A stretch of DNA of 64,000 nt from positions 189,413 through 253,412 of IMG/VR virus record IMGVR_UViG_3300014205_000001. The stretch is one strand, 5' to 3'. The notes below the pieces were generated by a model, which saw nothing but the letters and a program-made list of their open reading frames with translations, did no database searches and had not been told where the DNA came from. The stretch comes from a virus. Its lineage: Duplodnaviria > Heunggongvirae > Uroviricota > Caudoviricetes. Below, piece by piece: positions 14,362 through 20,164 of the stretch. A program made the position numbers and the translations under genes. Position 1 is the first letter of the stretch. Each line of letters starts with the position of its first letter.

Positions 14362-15102
14362 TTAACGAATATTATTTTCGATTTCGTATTGTGATTTGAA
14401 GATTTCTAACCCTAATTGGTCCTCTAACATTTTAGGTGTAGTACATGAACTGTTGAATGATGCGTATTCAGCATGTGATTTCCAACGTCCACAACCTGCA
14501 AATAAACAACCAAAAGCATTGGATAAATAATCGGCAGATGCATAATCGCATTTACCAATACTGTCACAGCCTGGTGCAAAAGATTCAGCAAGTTTGATTC
14601 CTGCTTTAATCATTTTATCACGTAACAACCAATGTAAAGCTACGATAAATTCTTCTTCGCAGAATTTTAAACGACGGCTCATTTGCCCCCGAAGTGATGC
14701 ATAGTCTTGAATTACTACGTAACTACAATTACGAGTCATTAAGTTGTAATCGTCTTTAAGATCAGCAGCATTACGTAATACTTCTAATTTGGTAGCTGTG
14801 TTCCAAAATTTTTCTTGTAGTTCAGTATCTTTTTCAATGCGATTATATAAAGCTGAGTAAACGACATATTCTGACTTATTACTTACTGTATAATCTAAAA
14901 ATTGAATACCTACACGCGCACGACTATGTTGGTCATATTGACAGATAGGTGTATTTGATACTTTGTATTTGATAATTTTATCAGTAAACTCAAGGATTTC
15001 AACTTGTAAATCCTCTACACCTTTAAAAACTTTAATTCCTTTAATATCGATCATGTTATAGTGTGTTGAATAATTTTTTATCTGACTCGGATAAATCATC
15101 AA
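14362..15102 (-). CDS. ThyX-like (flavin-dependent thymidylate synthase fold) protein B
   Basis: YKVSNTPICQYDQHSRARVG and YASLRGQMSRRLKFCEE resemble ThyX segments; the canonical RHRx7S motif is absent. Confidence 0.5.
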   Translation of the reverse strand: MMIYPSQIKNYSTHYNMIDIKGIKVFKGVEDLQVEILEFTDKIIKYKVSNTPICQYDQHSRARVGIQFLDYTVSNKSEYVVYSALYNRIEKDTELQEKFWNTATKLEVLRNAADLKDDYNLMTRNCSYVVIQDYASLRGQMSRRLKFCEEEFIVALHWLLRDKMIKAGIKLAESFAPGCDSIGKCDYASADYLSNAFGCLFAGCGRWKSHAEYASFNSSCTTPKMLEDQLGLEIFKSQYEIENNIR

Positions 15103-15925
15103 CTGAAAAGTTGATTAATTTTTGCATAATTACTTCATTGTCAGGTGCATGAAGTAGTTCTAAATATAAACCTAACAAAGGAAAATCAGCTGCAACTGCT
15201 GCAACTACTTTTTCGTATAATTTAGAAAGATATAAATCTTTAGATTTAGTTAAATCGAATTTTTTACTTGCGTGAAAACCACGTGTACCCACAATCGATA
15301 AAAGATTTTGACCAAAGTGATATGCATGAGAATATGATTGTGGTAAAAACGCTCTAGCAGTTTGCCACGAACCTTGAGAATCACTTAATGCAATTTCATA
15401 TAAGTCTTTTAATTCAGAGAAAACTTGTTTATCTAAATTTTCCCAATTTGTAGCTAATTCCAAATCATTGTTAGGAGTAGTAAGTAATTTTTGTTTAACA
15501 ACGTCACTATCAATTTTGTTGTTATCACGACATCCAATACTCATAAATGAAATGAATTGAACTGATGTACAGTGATAATCAAAGAGCCAACGTGGTACTC
15601 CTTTGACACGAAATACAAATTGCACCATTTCTTTGGCTTGTGGTAATGTATTGTGTGTTAATACAGCTTTGACAACTTCCAATTTACCTATCAGAGATGT
15701 TTCAGGCCATTTTTGTTTAAATTCATTGGTACCCCATGTAGATGTTGATGTAACAAACATTGCTTTATAAGGGTTTTTGGAATGATCTTCCAAAGTAACT
15801 TCAACTGATTCGTCGAAAGTTTTTAATTCAGTGCGTTTGGTAGGTGTTTCGCTAGGTAATGTTCCCATTACTTTACGAAGATTGTCAATTGCTTCTGATG
15901 TGATTGATTGAGTAATATTTTCCAT
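15056..15925 (-). CDS. ThyX-like protein A
   Basis: FVFRVKGVPRWLFDYH and QGSWQTARAFLPQS resemble ThyX (F.I.GVSR...Q..RH; ARxxLP). Confidence 0.6.
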   Translation of the reverse strand: MENITQSITSEAIDNLRKVMGTLPSETPTKRTELKTFDESVEVTLEDHSKNPYKAMFVTSTSTWGTNEFKQKWPETSLIGKLEVVKAVLTHNTLPQAKEMVQFVFRVKGVPRWLFDYHCTSVQFISFMSIGCRDNNKIDSDVVKQKLLTTPNNDLELATNWENLDKQVFSELKDLYEIALSDSQGSWQTARAFLPQSYSHAYHFGQNLLSIVGTRGFHASKKFDLTKSKDLYLSKLYEKVVAAVAADFPLLGLYLELLHAPDNEVIMQKLINFSVDDLSESDKKLFNTL

Positions 15926-15952
15926 TGATATACAATTATATGTATTTACTAT

Positions 15953-16462
15953 TTATTCTGAAATTTCTTGATGCAAAGACCCGATAGTAACTAGGATTGT
16001 GCCACGATGCATATTGAATTTTTGACATGCTTTATCCATTACTATTGCAAATGTTTGTTGATCATACAACCAATTTTTGCCATAATTACTTGAACGCATA
16101 TTTACATTTACATGTACTATTTCATTTCGTAATAATACTTGAATGCTTGCAATACATGCAGCTTTTTTATCATCCTCTTTATATTTAGGTTGAAATACTG
16201 CTTGGCGTGTATTCATATCACTTGCAAAATCGTATGAATAAAAATAATTTGTAATGTCGTTGCGTTCTAAAACATCTAATAAATTATTTGCACCAATTTG
16301 ATTTTCATCAAATTTTAATAAATAATCTACATCTTCAGCATTTAATCTGTAAGAGTATAAAATTATTTCTTTGTATACTTTATTGGCAATTATTAATGTT
16401 TCTGAAACCCAACTATTTAAATTAGTTTCAATATTTTCCTGTATTGTTTTAATATTTTGCAT
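15953..16462 (-). CDS. Short thymidylate synthase/dNMP hydroxymethylase-fold protein
   Basis: TRQAV...ACIASIQVLLRNEIVHVNVNMRSSN...WLYDQ matches the TS RxA, PC..S.QF and MRSxD motifs. Confidence 0.7.
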   Translation of the reverse strand: MQNIKTIQENIETNLNSWVSETLIIANKVYKEIILYSYRLNAEDVDYLLKFDENQIGANNLLDVLERNDITNYFYSYDFASDMNTRQAVFQPKYKEDDKKAACIASIQVLLRNEIVHVNVNMRSSNYGKNWLYDQQTFAIVMDKACQKFNMHRGTILVTIGSLHQEISE

Positions 16463-17930: not shown

Positions 17931-17935
17931 ACTAC

Positions 17936-18325
17936 TTATATCTGAATTTTGTAATTCTGTTTAATCGCTTCACACTTTTCGATGAAAGAAATCACAGGTT
18001 TCAATAATTCAGTCGTAACTTTACCAAATATTAATGTTTTATAGTAATAATTATCACGTATCATACTATTTAAAGTATCGTAAATAGGTTTTTGAATGGG
18101 TGTCGCAATTAATATTTCACAATCAAATAAACCTTCATCCTCTTTTTTAGGTTTTAACATATACATAAAACTTTCACCTGTTGCAGGAATATACATGGGA
18201 TTCAATTCATCTGTTTCAGTTAAATTGTATTTTTGTGTAATATCATCTTTTTTCATTGACTCCCATAACTTAATGTCATGTAAGGCAGCAGGATATTCGT
18301 AAAAAACTGCAGTTATTTTCTTCAT
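17936..18325 (-). CDS. Hypothetical protein within the putative modification operon
   Basis: 129-aa ORF coupled to its neighbours. Confidence 0.55.
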   Translation of the reverse strand: MKKITAVFYEYPAALHDIKLWESMKKDDITQKYNLTETDELNPMYIPATGESFMYMLKPKKEDEGLFDCEILIATPIQKPIYDTLNSMIRDNYYYKTLIFGKVTTELLKPVISFIEKCEAIKQNYKIQI

Positions 18326-19275
18326 TTTGAAATAGTTGGAGAAACTTTAATTAGCTGACGAATGTTGTGAATTACATTTACATTCTTTTTTACACCTAAC
18401 AAGTCTTCACTATTATATAAATTTTTGTTGTAAAATAAAAAACTTTGGAATGTATTTGCTAATTTGTTAATATTATCAATTTGATCATCTACTACAAATT
18501 CAATTTGTTCAGGATTAAAATTGTTAATTAAGAAATCTTCTTTATGTTCACTGAAAAACAAATAATCATACGGGATGTTTTCTTGTTCTAACCAAAAAAT
18601 AGTATCATAATACAGACGCGATATTTTTTCGTAAGGACGTGCTGTTAATAGAATTATTTTATGAGTTTGTGATAATAATTGTAAAACTTCTTTAGTTTCC
18701 GGATTTACAGTATTATTACGTTCTTCACCTGTTGTTTCAAACTTATCTTTTAACATTCTATACTCAGAACGATGTGTCTTTTTGTATAGATTTAAATCCT
18801 CAACATTCATATACTTCATCACATTCAAAGGATAATCATTAATCACACCATCAATGTCAAATACAACGTATTTTTCAGTTGTATCGTTTTGCGATTCGTG
18901 TAATTTCTTTTCTTGGTCAAAACGTATATCGACAATTTTAGATTTTTCACTATATTTAGTAGTAAATTGATCAGCATCAATTCCATTCAAGATACACACA
19001 TTCAGTAGATATTTAAATGCATCAATTGCCTGTTCCGCAAAATTATCAATATTCATTTCATGATCAGATTGATAACGATGAGTTTTCCATTGTAAAATAT
19101 CTAACAATTCGTGAATTTCTTTACTACTGGACAAAATCATTTCTTTCGTCCAATGAATCCGATCTTCTTTACTGATAGTATCTAAATCAATATTATGTTT
19201 TTGTTGTAAAACTTTACGTAAAAAGTCTTGTTGTGTTTTAAATATTTCTTGAAATTTGTCGTTCATATTTTGCAA
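18322..19275 (-). CDS. All-alpha NTP pyrophosphatase (dimeric dUTPase/MazG-like) fused to a HAD-family phosphatase
   Basis: N-terminal KEIHELLD...WKTH...EQAIDAFKYLLN; C-terminal FDIDGV, LTAR, VVDD (HAD motifs I, II, IV). Confidence 0.8.
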   Translation of the reverse strand: MQNMNDKFQEIFKTQQDFLRKVLQQKHNIDLDTISKEDRIHWTKEMILSSSKEIHELLDILQWKTHRYQSDHEMNIDNFAEQAIDAFKYLLNVCILNGIDADQFTTKYSEKSKIVDIRFDQEKKLHESQNDTTEKYVVFDIDGVINDYPLNVMKYMNVEDLNLYKKTHRSEYRMLKDKFETTGEERNNTVNPETKEVLQLLSQTHKIILLTARPYEKISRLYYDTIFWLEQENIPYDYLFFSEHKEDFLINNFNPEQIEFVVDDQIDNINKLANTFQSFLFYNKNLYNSEDLLGVKKNVNVIHNIRQLIKVSPTISK

Positions 19276-20164
19276 TGATTTCGTTAGCTTTTATTGAGTG
19301 GTTCCATTGTGCAAATCGTCCCACAAGTTCTATTCCTTGTATATTACGAAAATCAATCGAATTGTTTATTTGTATCGGAATGTTATTTAATACCTTCATT
19401 ACATTGTTACCATGTATTGCAACAATCGAATCTTCTTTTACAGGATTTACCATTTCGTAGACAATATAGTCTTTGAAATATGTTTTACGTGTATAATGAC
19501 CATCAGTAGAATAAATATAATGGAATTTTTTACTGTTTTCAATATCACGTGGAGTATCATAACTACATTGTACGAAATGTTTTTTCAAAGCAACTAAATT
19601 TAGTGGTTCTAAACCTAACAATTTTGTTAGAATGTTAATGTTTAGTGTCGATATTAATTCCTTATAAGGTGTAGTAATACCTTCCCAACCTAATACTTGA
19701 CGTTTTGTATTTAAAAATTCTACATTTTTGGGAATGATACGATCTTTTAAAAGATTTGTTAAGATAGCGAATACTTTATAGTATAAATCATCCCCATTTT
19801 CTGATACAAAAATTTCTATTTCGTTTTCACCACTTGATAAAAAAGAATCTTCAATTTTTGTTGTACCACGAGTAATTTGTGAATAATTTTCTTTAAATTC
19901 TTGACTTGCTTCGTTTTCAACTATTATACCGTCAGGGCTATAACCTACATAAATAAATTTAGTCGTATATTCCATGTGAAGACGTTCAATAAAATCTCTA
20001 CTAAATTCATCAACTTTTAAAATCCGTGGACCCGGAACAAAAGGTAAATTTAATTGACCCATGGGATTCTTATCAATGATTTGATAATCTGGGTTGTAAA
20101 ATGCTGCTATTAATCCGGCAGGTCCCCCGCCTAAGATATATTTTTCGGATGCTTCTGTTATCAT
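19238..20164 (-). CDS. FAD-dependent oxidoreductase (UDP-galactopyranose mutase/amine oxidase-like)
   Basis: ILGGGPAGL dinucleotide-binding motif; C-terminal LVGRFAQW. Confidence 0.75.
   Translation of the reverse strand: MITEASEKYILGGGPAGLIAAFYNPDYQIIDKNPMGQLNLPFVPGPRILKVDEFSRDFIERLHMEYTTKFIYVGYSPDGIIVENEASQEFKENYSQITRGTTKIEDSFLSSGENEIEIFVSENGDDLYYKVFAILTNLLKDRIIPKNVEFLNTKRQVLGWEGITTPYKELISTLNINILTKLLGLEPLNLVALKKHFVQCSYDTPRDIENSKKFHYIYSTDGHYTRKTYFKDYIVYEMVNPVKEDSIVAIHGNNVMKVLNNIPIQINNSIDFRNIQGIELVGRFAQWNHSIKANEIIAKYERQISRNI

What the first reader, a model, noticed from the sequence alone, without database searches (positions are those of the whole stretch)
14362..20164. Putative novel DNA/nucleotide hypermodification operon
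Seen: a tightly coupled run of FAD oxidoreductase (mutase-like), dUTPase/MazG-HAD fusion, unknown ORF, NMP kinase, NAD-dependent sugar epimerase/reductase, short TS/hydroxymethylase-fold protein and two ThyX-like proteins. Established: phages that replace a base use a TS-fold enzyme to modify a dNMP, a kinase to activate it and a pyrophosphatase to remove the canonical or wrong dNTP; sugar-nucleotide enzymes supply glycosyl donors. A second, T4 gp1-like dNMP kinase (37473) makes the operon kinase look dedicated. Inference: a modified, possibly sugar-decorated pyrimidine. No glycosyltransferase was recognised in the window.
Basis: partly seen in the sequence, partly recalled or inferred. Interest (0 to 1): 0.7.

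Follow-up and report, generated by a model that had tools for sequence, protein, structure and literature searches.

The report
Phage pyrimidine-nucleotide modification gene module
A 391-kb phage carries a conserved eight-gene enzyme set that most likely swaps a normal DNA pyrimidine (probably cytosine, for 5-hydroxycytosine) for a modified one before replication, built around a miniature thymidylate-synthase-like enzyme and an odd two-protein ThyX; no chemistry has been shown.

Summary

- **A:** a reduced UDP-galactopyranose-mutase fold.
- **B:** a MazG-type pyrophosphatase fused to a HAD phosphatase.
- **D and E:** D is a small dTMP-kinase-like kinase. E is an RmlD-like reductase.
- **F:** a 169-aa thymidylate-synthase fold with the catalytic Cys. 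It has Asp at ThyA position N177 and Asn at D169, the published signature of flavin-dependent 5-hydroxy-dCMP synthases (RB69 gp48).
- **G and H:** paralogous ThyX relatives that split the ancestral motifs between them and are modelled as a heteromer.

All eight genes recur together in 13 or more divergent uncultured phage contigs. There they sit beside DnaE, sometimes with D fused to F or to a uracil-DNA glycosylase. This phage uses PolB and has its own canonical ThyA, dCMP deaminase, dUTPase and gp1-like kinase, so a plain dTTP-supply role fits poorly.

My best reading (about 0.45) is an RB69-like pre-replicative cytosine modification arm (B, F, D) plus a ThyX-like/mutase-like arm of unknown chemistry. 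Sugar decoration is unsupported here, because I found no glycosyltransferase in this genome. The scan had already noted the flavoprotein, ThyX-like and HAD core on other phage DNA.

The parts
20182..20193 (-). promoter-like box GCATATAATGAT, 18 nt upstream of gene A
Evidence: 2-mismatch copy of the phage's GCATATAATTGT box. Function is inferred.
19238..20164 (-). A: 308-aa flavoprotein with a reduced UDP-galactopyranose-mutase (UGM) fold
   Evidence: AF2 model pLDDT 89.8. In Foldseek PDB the top ranks are all UGMs, best 3ukh E 7.9e-11, TMq 0.69. Profile against PDB gives UGM at E 0.011, aligning R226 with AfUGM R327 and Y218 with Y317. No Pfam or NCBIfam hit.
18322..19275 (-). B: fusion of a MazG/dUTPase_2-type NTP pyrophosphatase (about residues 1-120) with a HAD NT5C-type phosphatase (about residues 130-300)
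   Evidence: PHROG hits: phrog_415 3.4e-13, phrog_1238 1.7e-8, dUTPase 3.2e-4, pyrophosphohydrolase 1e-3. Acidic MazG motifs and HAD residues D140, D142, K245 and D264 are invariant, with T211 and D263 nearly invariant. The orthologue in L031 is annotated dUTPase_2 + NT5C.
17936..18325 (-). C: 129-aa conserved protein of unknown function (motif FYE.PAA..EI..WE)
   Evidence: No family hit. Present in 12 of 13 related loci.
17496..17930 (-). D: 144-aa dTMP-kinase-like nucleotide kinase
   Evidence: Pfam Thymidylate_kin 4.9e-7, 30.1 bits against a cut-off of 27. Invariant P-loop G11, D13, G16, K17, and R37. Fused to F in 5 related loci and to a UDG domain in 3.
16462..17496 (-). E: 344-aa extended SDR, RmlD-like NAD(P) reductase/epimerase
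   Evidence: Pfam RmlD_sub_bind 2.1e-26 and Epimerase 3e-21. Best PDB matches are dTDP-4-dehydrorhamnose reductases, 2.6e-13. GxxGxxG and YxxxK are in the sequence. Below the TIGR01214 equivalog cut-off.
15953..16462 (-). F: 169-aa miniature thymidylate-synthase-fold enzyme with a 5-hydroxy-dCMP-synthase-like signature
   Evidence: Model pLDDT 89. VIA-align Z 14.2 to MilA, 13.5 to phage HY126 dCMP hydroxylase AfhB, about 12.8 to TS. Profile against T4 dCMP hydroxymethylase 1.8e-7. C103, R123, S124 and D134 are invariant; N126 sits at the ThyA D169 position.
15932..15943 (-). promoter-like box ACATATAATTGT, 6 nt upstream of gene G
   Evidence: 1-mismatch copy of the phage promoter box in the 27-nt F-G gap. 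In relatives, DnaE sits at this junction.
15056..15925 (-). G: 289-aa ThyX-superfamily paralogue. It keeps the N-terminal domain, S.G.RDN (R133 = Tm ThyX R90) and SWQ.AR..LP. It has lost R.R and the Cys-rich tail.
   Evidence: The profile of G finds Thy1-positive proteins. Superfamily profile against ThyX structures 3.2e-14. Motif map.
14362..15102 (-). H: ThyX-superfamily paralogue (probable start ATG at 15054). It keeps R61.R63 (the RHR equivalent), GQMSRRL.CEEE and a tail with six invariant Cys. It lacks the N-terminal domain and S.G.RDN.
   Evidence: hhalign H family against G superfamily: probability 100%, E 1.4e-40. Motif map. Invariant Cys listed. At least 179 metagenomic clusters, all unnamed.

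Best explanation
This is a conserved, mobile phage module that remodels the pyrimidine deoxynucleotide pool before replication. It has two arms.

Arm 1 (B N-terminal domain, F, D) works like the RB69/T4 scheme:
- The MazG-type domain of B hydrolyses the canonical triphosphate (probably dCTP) to the monophosphate.
- F attacks C6 of dCMP with Cys103. Its Asp134 selects cytosine. It lacks the folate-binding Asp, so it most likely installs a 5-hydroxyl with a flavin and O2 rather than a one-carbon unit.
- D phosphorylates the product so that it can reach the triphosphate and be incorporated.

Arm 2 (G+H, A, probably the HAD domain of B, C and E) is built on a ThyX-like flavoenzyme that has split into two paralogues. 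Each keeps half of the ancestral active-site motifs, so G and H must assemble as a heteromer. It always travels with a stripped-down UGM-fold flavoprotein. Its chemistry is unknown. I infer a second C5 reaction on a uracil nucleotide, either thymidylate-like or a bulkier alkylation, tailored in this phage by the RmlD-like reductase E.

Shown: the folds, the signature residues, synteny, the gene fusions and the modelled G-H interface.
Inferred: the substrates, the products, and that the DNA is modified at all.
For: F:
- It has the TS fold over its whole length.
- The alignment to E. coli ThyA and RB69 gp48 places C103 at C146, R123/S124 at R166/S167, N126 at D169 and D134 at N177.
- D134 is invariant. 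The D169 position is N in 8 of 11 family members, H in 2 and S in 1, and never D.
- Lee et al. 2026 (PMC13326640) show that N177D gives dCMP specificity and that D169N was diagnostic for 5hodCMP synthases in all nine homologues they tested. Their clusters also hold a TMK-like kinase beside the synthase, a HAD phosphatase and a dCTPase.
- D is fused to F in five related loci.
- The nearest cultured-phage relative of F, Sphingomonas phage PAU gp182, reads RSNN...FD and sits beside dTDP-sugar genes.

Module:
- A-H are syntenic in 13 or more contigs.
- The module occurs with DnaE, with PolA (L031) and, in this phage, with PolB.

Redundancy argument: this genome also has a canonical ThyA (RSID...FN, PPCH), a dCMP deaminase, a trimeric dUTPase and a gp1-like kinase.

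G and H:
- Complementary motif loss.
- Complex model ipSAE 0.76 against a best control of 0.00. That mark was reached by 58 of 80 solved complexes and 2 of 110 mismatched pairs. The runs share at least 83% of contacts and the partner pLDDT is at least 81. The interface joins G S129/R133 to H R61/R63. ThyX tetramers are solved, so this pass may reflect likeness to known structures.

Variable tailoring genes (SDR, PLP enzyme, SAM methyltransferase) occur at the same place in relatives.

UDG fused to the kinase or to DnaE in relatives parallels the UDG-polymerase fusions of T-modified phages (PMC13697223).
Against: - No chemical or sequencing-signal evidence of a modified base exists for this uncultured phage.
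- F is 50-70 residues shorter than any proven 5hodCMP synthase, and by profile score it is no closer to that group than to T4 dCMP hydroxymethylase.
- ThyA position L143 stays Leu in most family members. It is Glu in RB69 and DLP3.
- No glycosyltransferase was found in this genome. Bare 5-hydroxycytosine would be a substrate for Nth/Nei-type glycosylases, and the phage itself encodes an Fpg/Nei homologue at 9118-9912.
- Related complete phages lack ThyA, so there G+H could simply be the thymidylate synthase.
- An earlier scan check of the same core cassette judged that a plain dTMP-making reading fits.
Confidence: 0.45

Rival explanations
1. Plain thymidylate supply and uracil avoidance. B acts as a dUTPase/nucleotidase, G+H is a divergent flavin-dependent thymidylate synthase with A as helper flavoprotein, and D is a dTMP kinase. 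The DNA is canonical.
For: - G and H are true ThyX relatives.
- Complete relatives G001 and G002 have no ThyA.
- UDG, a dUTPase-like domain, a TMK-like kinase and ThyX form a classic thymidylate set.
- An earlier check of the core cassette reached this reading.
Against: - This phage already has a canonical ThyA, dCMP deaminase, dUTPase and dNMP kinase.
- F has the cytosine-selecting Asp and no folate Asp.
- A UGM-fold protein, an RmlD-like SDR and the variable PLP or methyltransferase genes have no role in dTTP supply.
- The ThyX His residues and the RHRx7S motif are not kept in either chain.
Confidence: 0.2
2. T4-type 5-hydroxymethylcytosine or 5-methylcytosine. F is a folate-dependent dCMP hydroxymethylase or methylase.
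For: The best sequence-profile match of F is T4 dCMP hydroxymethylase (1.8e-7; 3.5e-6). The Cys, the RS pair and Asp179-equivalent D134 are kept.
Against: - The Asp at ThyA position 169 is replaced by N, H or S in every member; T4 dCMP hydroxymethylase keeps Asp at this position (RSND). That this Asp contacts the folate is from memory.
- F ends right after the SLH motif and has a shortened N-terminal half, so the usual folate-binding C-terminus is absent.
- The E. coli D169N mutant scores better than wild type against the F profile.
Confidence: 0.1
3. A thymidine hypermodification pathway. G+H and A build a bulky C5 substituent on a uracil nucleotide, as proposed by earlier scan reports for PB1-like phages whose DNA carries sugar-alcohol thymidines. 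F and D are accessory.
For: - The A, ThyX-like and HAD core is shared with single-chain relatives in other phages and, for ThyX-like and HAD, with mycobacteriophage Hawkeye.
- UDG fusions are a mark of T-modified phages (PMC13697223).
- Pbunavirus DNA holds sugar-derived thymidines with no genes assigned (PMC12191111).
- G keeps the Arg that reads uracil O4 in ThyX.
Against: - The Pbunavirus mark is confined to TG sites, which a pool enzyme does not explain (earlier check).
- A gave no tblastn match in 50,697 GenBank phage records, so homology to the PB1-type flavoprotein was not shown here.
- This phage keeps a canonical ThyA.
Confidence: 0.15

Closest known systems
Glycosylated 5-hydroxycytosine pathway of phages RB69, DLP3, RL38JI and HY126 (5hodCMP synthase gp48/gp80/AfhB; Lee et al. 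2026, PMC13326640; PDB 9iqu, 9iqc)
   Same: A TS-fold enzyme with catalytic Cys, N177D and D169N (RSQN...D in both F relatives and RB69 gp48). A TMK-like kinase sits next to it, with a MazG-type triphosphatase and an NT5C-type HAD phosphatase. A UGM occurs in RL38JI. A separate gp1-like dNMP kinase lies elsewhere in the genome.
   Different: F is 169 aa against 217-240 aa and does not group with that family by score. No arabinose-5-P isomerase, nucleotidyltransferase or glycosyltransferase is present. The pyrophosphatase and phosphatase are fused here. The module also holds the G/H ThyX-like pair, a reduced UGM fold and an RmlD-like SDR.
T4 dCMP hydroxymethylase (gp42), dCTPase (gp56), dNMP kinase (gp1)
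   Same: The same three-step logic: hydrolyse the canonical dNTP, modify the dNMP at C5 on a TS fold, then re-phosphorylate. T4 gp42 is the best sequence-profile match of F.
   Different: F lacks the folate-contacting Asp and the C-terminal segment. Its kinase is TMK-like, not gp1-like.
Flavin-dependent thymidylate synthase ThyX (Pfam Thy1; T. maritima 1o26, M. tuberculosis 3gwc)
   Same: G and H are homologous to it. The Arg residues equivalent to R78, R80, R90, R147 and R174 are all present across the pair.
   Different: The residues are divided between two polypeptides. The His at the position of T. maritima H53 is Leu. RHR has become R.R. A Cys-rich C-terminal tail is added. Neither chain reaches the Pfam threshold.
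UDP-galactopyranose mutase (Glf)
   Same: A has the same overall fold, the FAD-binding GxGxxG, and equivalents of AfUGM R327 and Y317.
   Different: A is 100-200 residues shorter, with the helical region (where I recall UGM binds uridine) largely missing. It has no Pfam GLF hit, and its substrate is unknown.
Oxidoreductase, nucleotidase, SDR, DnaE and ThyX-like block of cluster D mycobacteriophages (Hawkeye gp70-78) and Gordonia phage Xenia2
   Same: Same gene order around DnaE. Hawkeye gp78 matches the G superfamily profile (2.6e-23, scored against 14 proteins) including a Cys-bearing tail. The HAD domain of B matches gp71 (1e-10).
   Different: These have a single-chain ThyX-like protein, a FabG-type rather than RmlD-type SDR, and no F. 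Similarity of the oxidoreductase to A is only marginal (E 0.016 against 14 proteins).
Sphingomonas phage PAU gp182 region
   Same: The nearest cultured-phage relative of F. It has the same RSNN...D signature and sits beside dTDP-sugar enzymes, as F sits beside RmlD-like E.
   Different: gp182 is a full-length (235 aa) TS homologue. RmlA, B and C genes are present there, with no ThyX-like pair. Its DNA chemistry is not known to me.

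Membership tests
5-hydroxy-dCMP synthase (RB69 gp48 / DLP3 gp80 / HY126 AfhB) | Thymidylate-synthase fold with a catalytic Cys at the ThyA C146 position | tested here: met
   Z 13.5 to 9iqu over 161 residues (rmsd 3.4) and Z 14.2 to MilA. C103 is invariant and aligns to C146.
5-hydroxy-dCMP synthase (RB69 gp48 / DLP3 gp80 / HY126 AfhB) | Asp at the ThyA N177 position (dCMP specificity) | tested here: met
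   D134 is invariant in 17 sequences, 11 residues after R123, as in RB69 gp48 and T4 gp42.
5-hydroxy-dCMP synthase (RB69 gp48 / DLP3 gp80 / HY126 AfhB) | Asn at the ThyA D169 position (diagnostic residue of Lee et al. 2026) | tested here: met
   N126 in the window protein. Across 11 family members it is N in 8, H in 2 and S in 1, never Asp. RB69 gp48 reads MRSQN.
5-hydroxy-dCMP synthase (RB69 gp48 / DLP3 gp80 / HY126 AfhB) | Binds a flavin and hydroxylates dCMP with O2 | not testable with these tools
   Needs purified protein or in vivo product analysis.
5-hydroxy-dCMP synthase (RB69 gp48 / DLP3 gp80 / HY126 AfhB) | Groups with proven members by sequence | tested here: inconclusive
   F profile scores: T4 dCH 34.4 bits, 9iqc and 9iqu 24.9 bits, E. 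coli TS 19-22 bits. F is 169 aa against 217-240 aa.
T4-type dCMP hydroxymethylase | Asp at ThyA position 169 (folate contact recalled from memory; T4 D171) and a C-terminal folate-binding segment | tested here: not met
   The position is N, H or S in all members. The protein ends 5 residues after the SLH motif.
ThyX (Pfam Thy1, PF02511) | Match to the family model above its threshold | tested here: not met
   No Thy1 hit for G or H or anywhere in the genome at E <= 1. Homology shows only through profiles.
ThyX (Pfam Thy1, PF02511) | RHRx7-8S...R signature within one chain | tested here: not met
   G reads HCTSVQFISFMSIGCRDN (no R.R). H reads HSRARVGIQFLDYTVSN (no S.G.R). Single-chain relatives have R.R.G....S.G.RDN.
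ThyX (Pfam Thy1, PF02511) | Oligomer with active sites built across subunits | tested here: inconclusive
   G-H model ipSAE 0.76 against a best control of 0.00. The interface joins G R133 to H R61/R63. This is a model only and may echo solved ThyX tetramers.
UDP-galactopyranose mutase | UGM three-domain fold with FAD site and the diphosphate-binding Arg | tested here: inconclusive
   Top Foldseek hits are all UGM and an R327 equivalent (R226) is present. However, the protein is 308 aa, the helical domain is reduced and there is no Pfam hit.
dTDP-4-dehydrorhamnose reductase RmlD | Equivalog-level match (TIGR01214) | tested here: not met
   74.7 bits against a cut-off of 224. The Pfam RmlD_sub_bind domain is met (93 bits against 27). 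It is therefore an RmlD-like SDR, not RmlD itself.
dTMP kinase | Equivalog-level match (TIGR00041) | tested here: not met
   26.5 bits against a cut-off of 83. The Pfam domain passes marginally (30.1 against 27). D is 144 aa.

The most novel reading that the evidence does not exclude
The G+H heteromer with the UGM-fold flavoprotein A is a new kind of flavin-dependent C5-alkylating system. A ThyX-type N5-iminium transfer would carry a sugar-derived carbon chain (UGM-type flavin-sugar adduct chemistry) instead of methylene. This would yield polyhydroxyalkyl-uracil nucleotides of the sort found, with no genes assigned, in Pbunavirus DNA. Together with F, this phage would then replace both pyrimidines.
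Probability: 0.1. Interest if true: 0.9.

Novelty: new variant of a known kind. Interest (0 to 1): 0.6.

Why it matters
If the reading holds, pre-replicative cytosine hydroxylation, described only in 2025-2026 in T4-like and Rhizobium phages, extends to a large and abundant group of uncultured marine and Bacteroidota phages. It would do so in a minimal 160-180-aa enzyme form.

The report also defines a testable gene set for the still unassigned ThyX-like/flavoprotein cassette that travels with three different replicative polymerases. The G/H pair would be the first heteromeric ThyX I know of, and a clear case of complementary loss of active-site motifs after duplication.

Modified DNA in such phages affects restriction and defence evasion. 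It also affects sequencing bias in viromes.

Tried and rejected
- **DNA-level search:** blastn of 14000-21800 against GenBank phages found nothing.
- **tblastn against GenBank phages:** H, A and a single-chain ThyX-like relative gave no match.
- **Single-sequence PDB searches:** G and H gave nothing.
- **Family libraries:** Pfam and NCBIfam gave nothing for A, B, C, G or H.
- **Flanking genes excluded:** the upstream ACP-domain gene (20607-21707), the 121-aa ORF (20200-20565) and the downstream 103-aa ORF (14049-14360) have no counterpart beside the module in any relative.
- **Sugar decoration:** there is no GT1 or GT2 Pfam hit in this genome. There is also no homologue of the GT-B genes that lie 6-10 kb from the module in relatives G001 and G004. 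Other glycosyltransferase families were not searched.
- **Polymerase linkage in this phage:** the genome has no DnaE and no PolA. Its PolB lies more than 50 kb away.
- **Actinophage oxidoreductase against A:** only a marginal similarity (E 0.016 among 14 proteins), so I claim no homology.
- **Literature:** searches for a ThyX-like or ThyX paralogue description of this module found none.

Full report
**Setting.** The window is bases 189413-253412 of a complete 391,061-bp virus record with direct terminal repeats. GC content is about 30%. No GenBank phage resembles the region at the DNA level.

**Observation.** Eight minus-strand ORFs fill 14362-20164 with overlaps or gaps of at most 27 nt. I call them A to H in transcription order. 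A copy of the phage's promoter box lies upstream of A (20182-20193, two mismatches).

**A (308 aa).** No family hit. A 12-sequence alignment gave a confident model (pLDDT 89.8). Its best PDB matches are all UDP-galactopyranose mutases (E 7.9e-11, TMq 0.69), followed by amine-oxidase-type flavoproteins. The profile alignment places R226 and Y218 on AfUGM R327 and Y317. A is 100-200 residues shorter than any UGM, and the helical region is much reduced. From memory, that is the domain that binds uridine in UGM.

**B (317 aa).** B joins an all-alpha NTP pyrophosphatase with conserved acidic motifs to a HAD phosphatase. HAD residues D140, D142, K245 and D264 are invariant. An orthologue carries precomputed Pfam dUTPase_2 plus NT5C. 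Its HAD domain hits phrog_1238 'phosphoheptose isomerase', the same name GenBank gives RB69 gp51; a direct comparison of B with gp51 was only marginal (E 0.001 among 5 proteins).

**C, D and E.** C (129 aa) matches nothing. D (144 aa) is a small dTMP-kinase-like P-loop kinase. E is an extended SDR closest to dTDP-4-dehydrorhamnose reductases, but far below the RmlD equivalog threshold.

**F (169 aa).** This is the most informative gene.
- Its family profile hits T4 dCMP hydroxymethylase (1.8e-7) and thymidylate synthases.
- The model (pLDDT 89) superposes over its whole length on MilA (Z 14.2), on the phage HY126 dCMP hydroxylase AfhB (Z 13.5) and on thymidylate synthases (Z about 12.8).
- Alignment to E. 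coli ThyA and to RB69 gp48 maps C103 to C146, R123/S124 to R166/S167, N126 to D169 and the invariant D134 to N177.
- Lee et al. 2026 (PMC13326640) showed experimentally that TS homologues with N177D and D169N are flavin-binding, O2-dependent 5-hydroxy-dCMP synthases. D169N was diagnostic in all nine further homologues they tested.
- In the F family the D169 position is N (8 of 11), H (2) or S (1), and never Asp.
- F ends just after the SLH motif. It therefore lacks the C-terminal segment that I recall helping to bind folate in classical TS enzymes. D169 is also a folate contact by my recollection.
- The genome's other TS homologue is canonical (RSID...FN, PPCH, above the TIGR03284 cut-off).

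**G and H.** Neither hits Pfam Thy1.
- An exhaustive profile search with G found 83 representative clusters. All ten that I scanned carry Thy1 above threshold.
- A 48-sequence superfamily profile hits ThyX crystal structures at 3e-14.
- The H family aligns to that profile with hhalign probability 100%, E 1.4e-40.
- Single-chain relatives of about 330 aa read R.R.G....S.G.RDN, SWQ.AR..LP and GQMSRRL.CE, followed by a Cys-rich tail.
- G keeps the N-terminal domain, S.G.RDN and SWQ.AR..LP. H keeps R.R.G, GQMSRRL.CEEE and the tail with six invariant Cys.
- The ThyX arginines are thus divided between two chains, which implies an obligate heteromer.
- The complex model agrees: ipSAE 0.76 against a best control of 0.00. 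That mark was reached by 58 of 80 solved and 2 of 110 mismatched pairs. The runs share at least 83% of contacts and the partner pLDDT is at least 81. The interface joins G S129/R133 to H R61/R63. Because ThyX tetramers are solved, this pass may reflect likeness to known structures.

**Conservation and context.** Scans of viral contigs returned 29 loci in total.
- In 13 non-redundant loci with enough flank, A, B, G and H are always present. D and F are always present, as one fused protein in five loci. C is present in 12 and E in 10.
- In most relatives a DnaE polymerase sits between F and G.
- A family-4-type UDG is free-standing, fused to D, or fused to DnaE.
- The three loci without E have a PLP-dependent enzyme upstream of A. 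Others add a SAM methyltransferase. This pattern looks like variable tailoring.
- Single-chain ThyX-like relatives sit with A-, B-, D-, E- and F-like genes beside PolA or other replication genes.
- Mycobacteriophage Hawkeye has an oxidoreductase, nucleotidase, SDR, DnaE and ThyX-like block whose gp78 matches the superfamily profile.
- This jumbo phage has no DnaE and no PolA, but has PolB more than 50 kb away. The module therefore moves independently of the polymerase type.

**Interpretation.** A plain dTTP-supply role is possible in relatives that lack ThyA. In this phage it is redundant with the canonical ThyA, dCMP deaminase, dUTPase and gp1-like dNMP kinase. It also leaves F, A and E without a role.
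- The B (pyrophosphatase), F and D trio reproduces the RB69/DLP3 layout: dCTPase, 5hodCMP synthase and an adjacent TMK-like kinase, with a HAD phosphatase nearby.
- The D-F fusions argue that the product of F is the substrate of D.
- The nearest cultured relative of F, Sphingomonas phage PAU gp182, has the same RSNN...D signature and lies beside RmlA/B/C-type genes. This gives some context for the RmlD-like E.
- I therefore favour pre-replicative synthesis of a C5-modified, most likely 5-hydroxylated, deoxycytidine nucleotide. A second arm (G/H plus A) of unknown chemistry probably acts on a uracil nucleotide, because G retains the counterpart of ThyX R90.

**Limits.**
- No direct evidence of modified DNA exists.
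- F is much smaller than proven enzymes and does not group with them by score.
- This genome has no detectable GT1 or GT2 glycosyltransferase. Relatives G001 and G004 have tandem GT-B genes 6-10 kb from the module.
- The phage also encodes an Fpg/Nei glycosylase. That family would be expected to attack unprotected 5-hydroxypyrimidines.

**Prior knowledge.**
- This scan had already reported the UGM-like flavoprotein, His-less ThyX and HAD core in PB1-like, Wifcevirus and actinobacterial phages. It linked that core to the unassigned sugar-bearing thymidines of Pbunavirus (PMC12191111).
- A later check weakened that link.
- I found no publication describing the module or the G/H heteromer.
- UDG-polymerase fusions are published as a mark of T-modified phages (PMC13697223).

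Noticed in passing
window 9118-9912 (-): Fpg/Nei-family DNA glycosylase (H2TH, Fapy_DNA_glyco and Neil1 DNA-binding domains). This family excises oxidised pyrimidines such as 5-hydroxycytosine and 5-hydroxyuracil, so it bears on whether the phage DNA could hold bare 5-hydroxycytosine.
   Followed up: no
G000:C1:142494-143594 (locus L005:1501-2601): Canonical ThyA (RSID...FN, PPCH) carrying an insertion of roughly 45 residues between the catalytic Cys segment and the RS motif.
   Followed up: partly
L003:6135-9986 and L015:4697-8228: In relatives the DnaE polymerase is either fused at its N-terminus to a UDG domain (1283 aa) or split into two ORFs of 427 and 748 aa.
   Followed up: partly
proteins P0145, P0162, P0166, P0167, P0183, P0197: Several ThyX-like relatives of G are interrupted by inteins (Hint/intein splicing domains, one with LAGLIDADG).
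   Followed up: no
L015:16981-19652 and L018:15869-18865: Tandem GT-B (Glycos_transf_1) glycosyltransferase genes, plus GT2 genes further on, lie 6-10 kb downstream of the module in two relatives. They sit next to a PD-(D/E)XK nuclease and, in L018, a dCMP deaminase. They are candidate DNA glycosyltransferases.
   Followed up: partly
L025:11817-12200, L026:10638-11033, L027:10677-11063: A free-standing MazG-like protein of about 130 aa follows H in some relatives (E 1e-19 to 1e-24 to the B profile). In the window this place is taken by a 103-aa ORF (14049-14360) that I recognised by eye as DUF1653-like.
   Followed up: no
window 5752-6798 (-) and 30824-34099 (-): A histone-deacetylase-family protein and a single-chain type II topoisomerase (GyrB-like plus GyrA-like, 1091 aa).
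   Followed up: no
window 14362-15102 (H), residues 126-220: Six invariant cysteines (C126, C148, C179, C185, C204, C220) in H and in single-chain relatives suggest a metal or iron-sulfur site that canonical ThyX lacks.
   Followed up: no
NC_019521.1 131657-141184 (locus L051): Sphingomonas phage PAU holds a TS homologue with the 5hodCMP-synthase signature (RSNN...FD). It is flanked by four unannotated genes of 385-410 aa (gp179-181 and gp183) and by RmlB, RmlC and RmlA homologues. This looks like an undescribed glycosylated-cytosine cluster in a cultured phage.
   Followed up: partly
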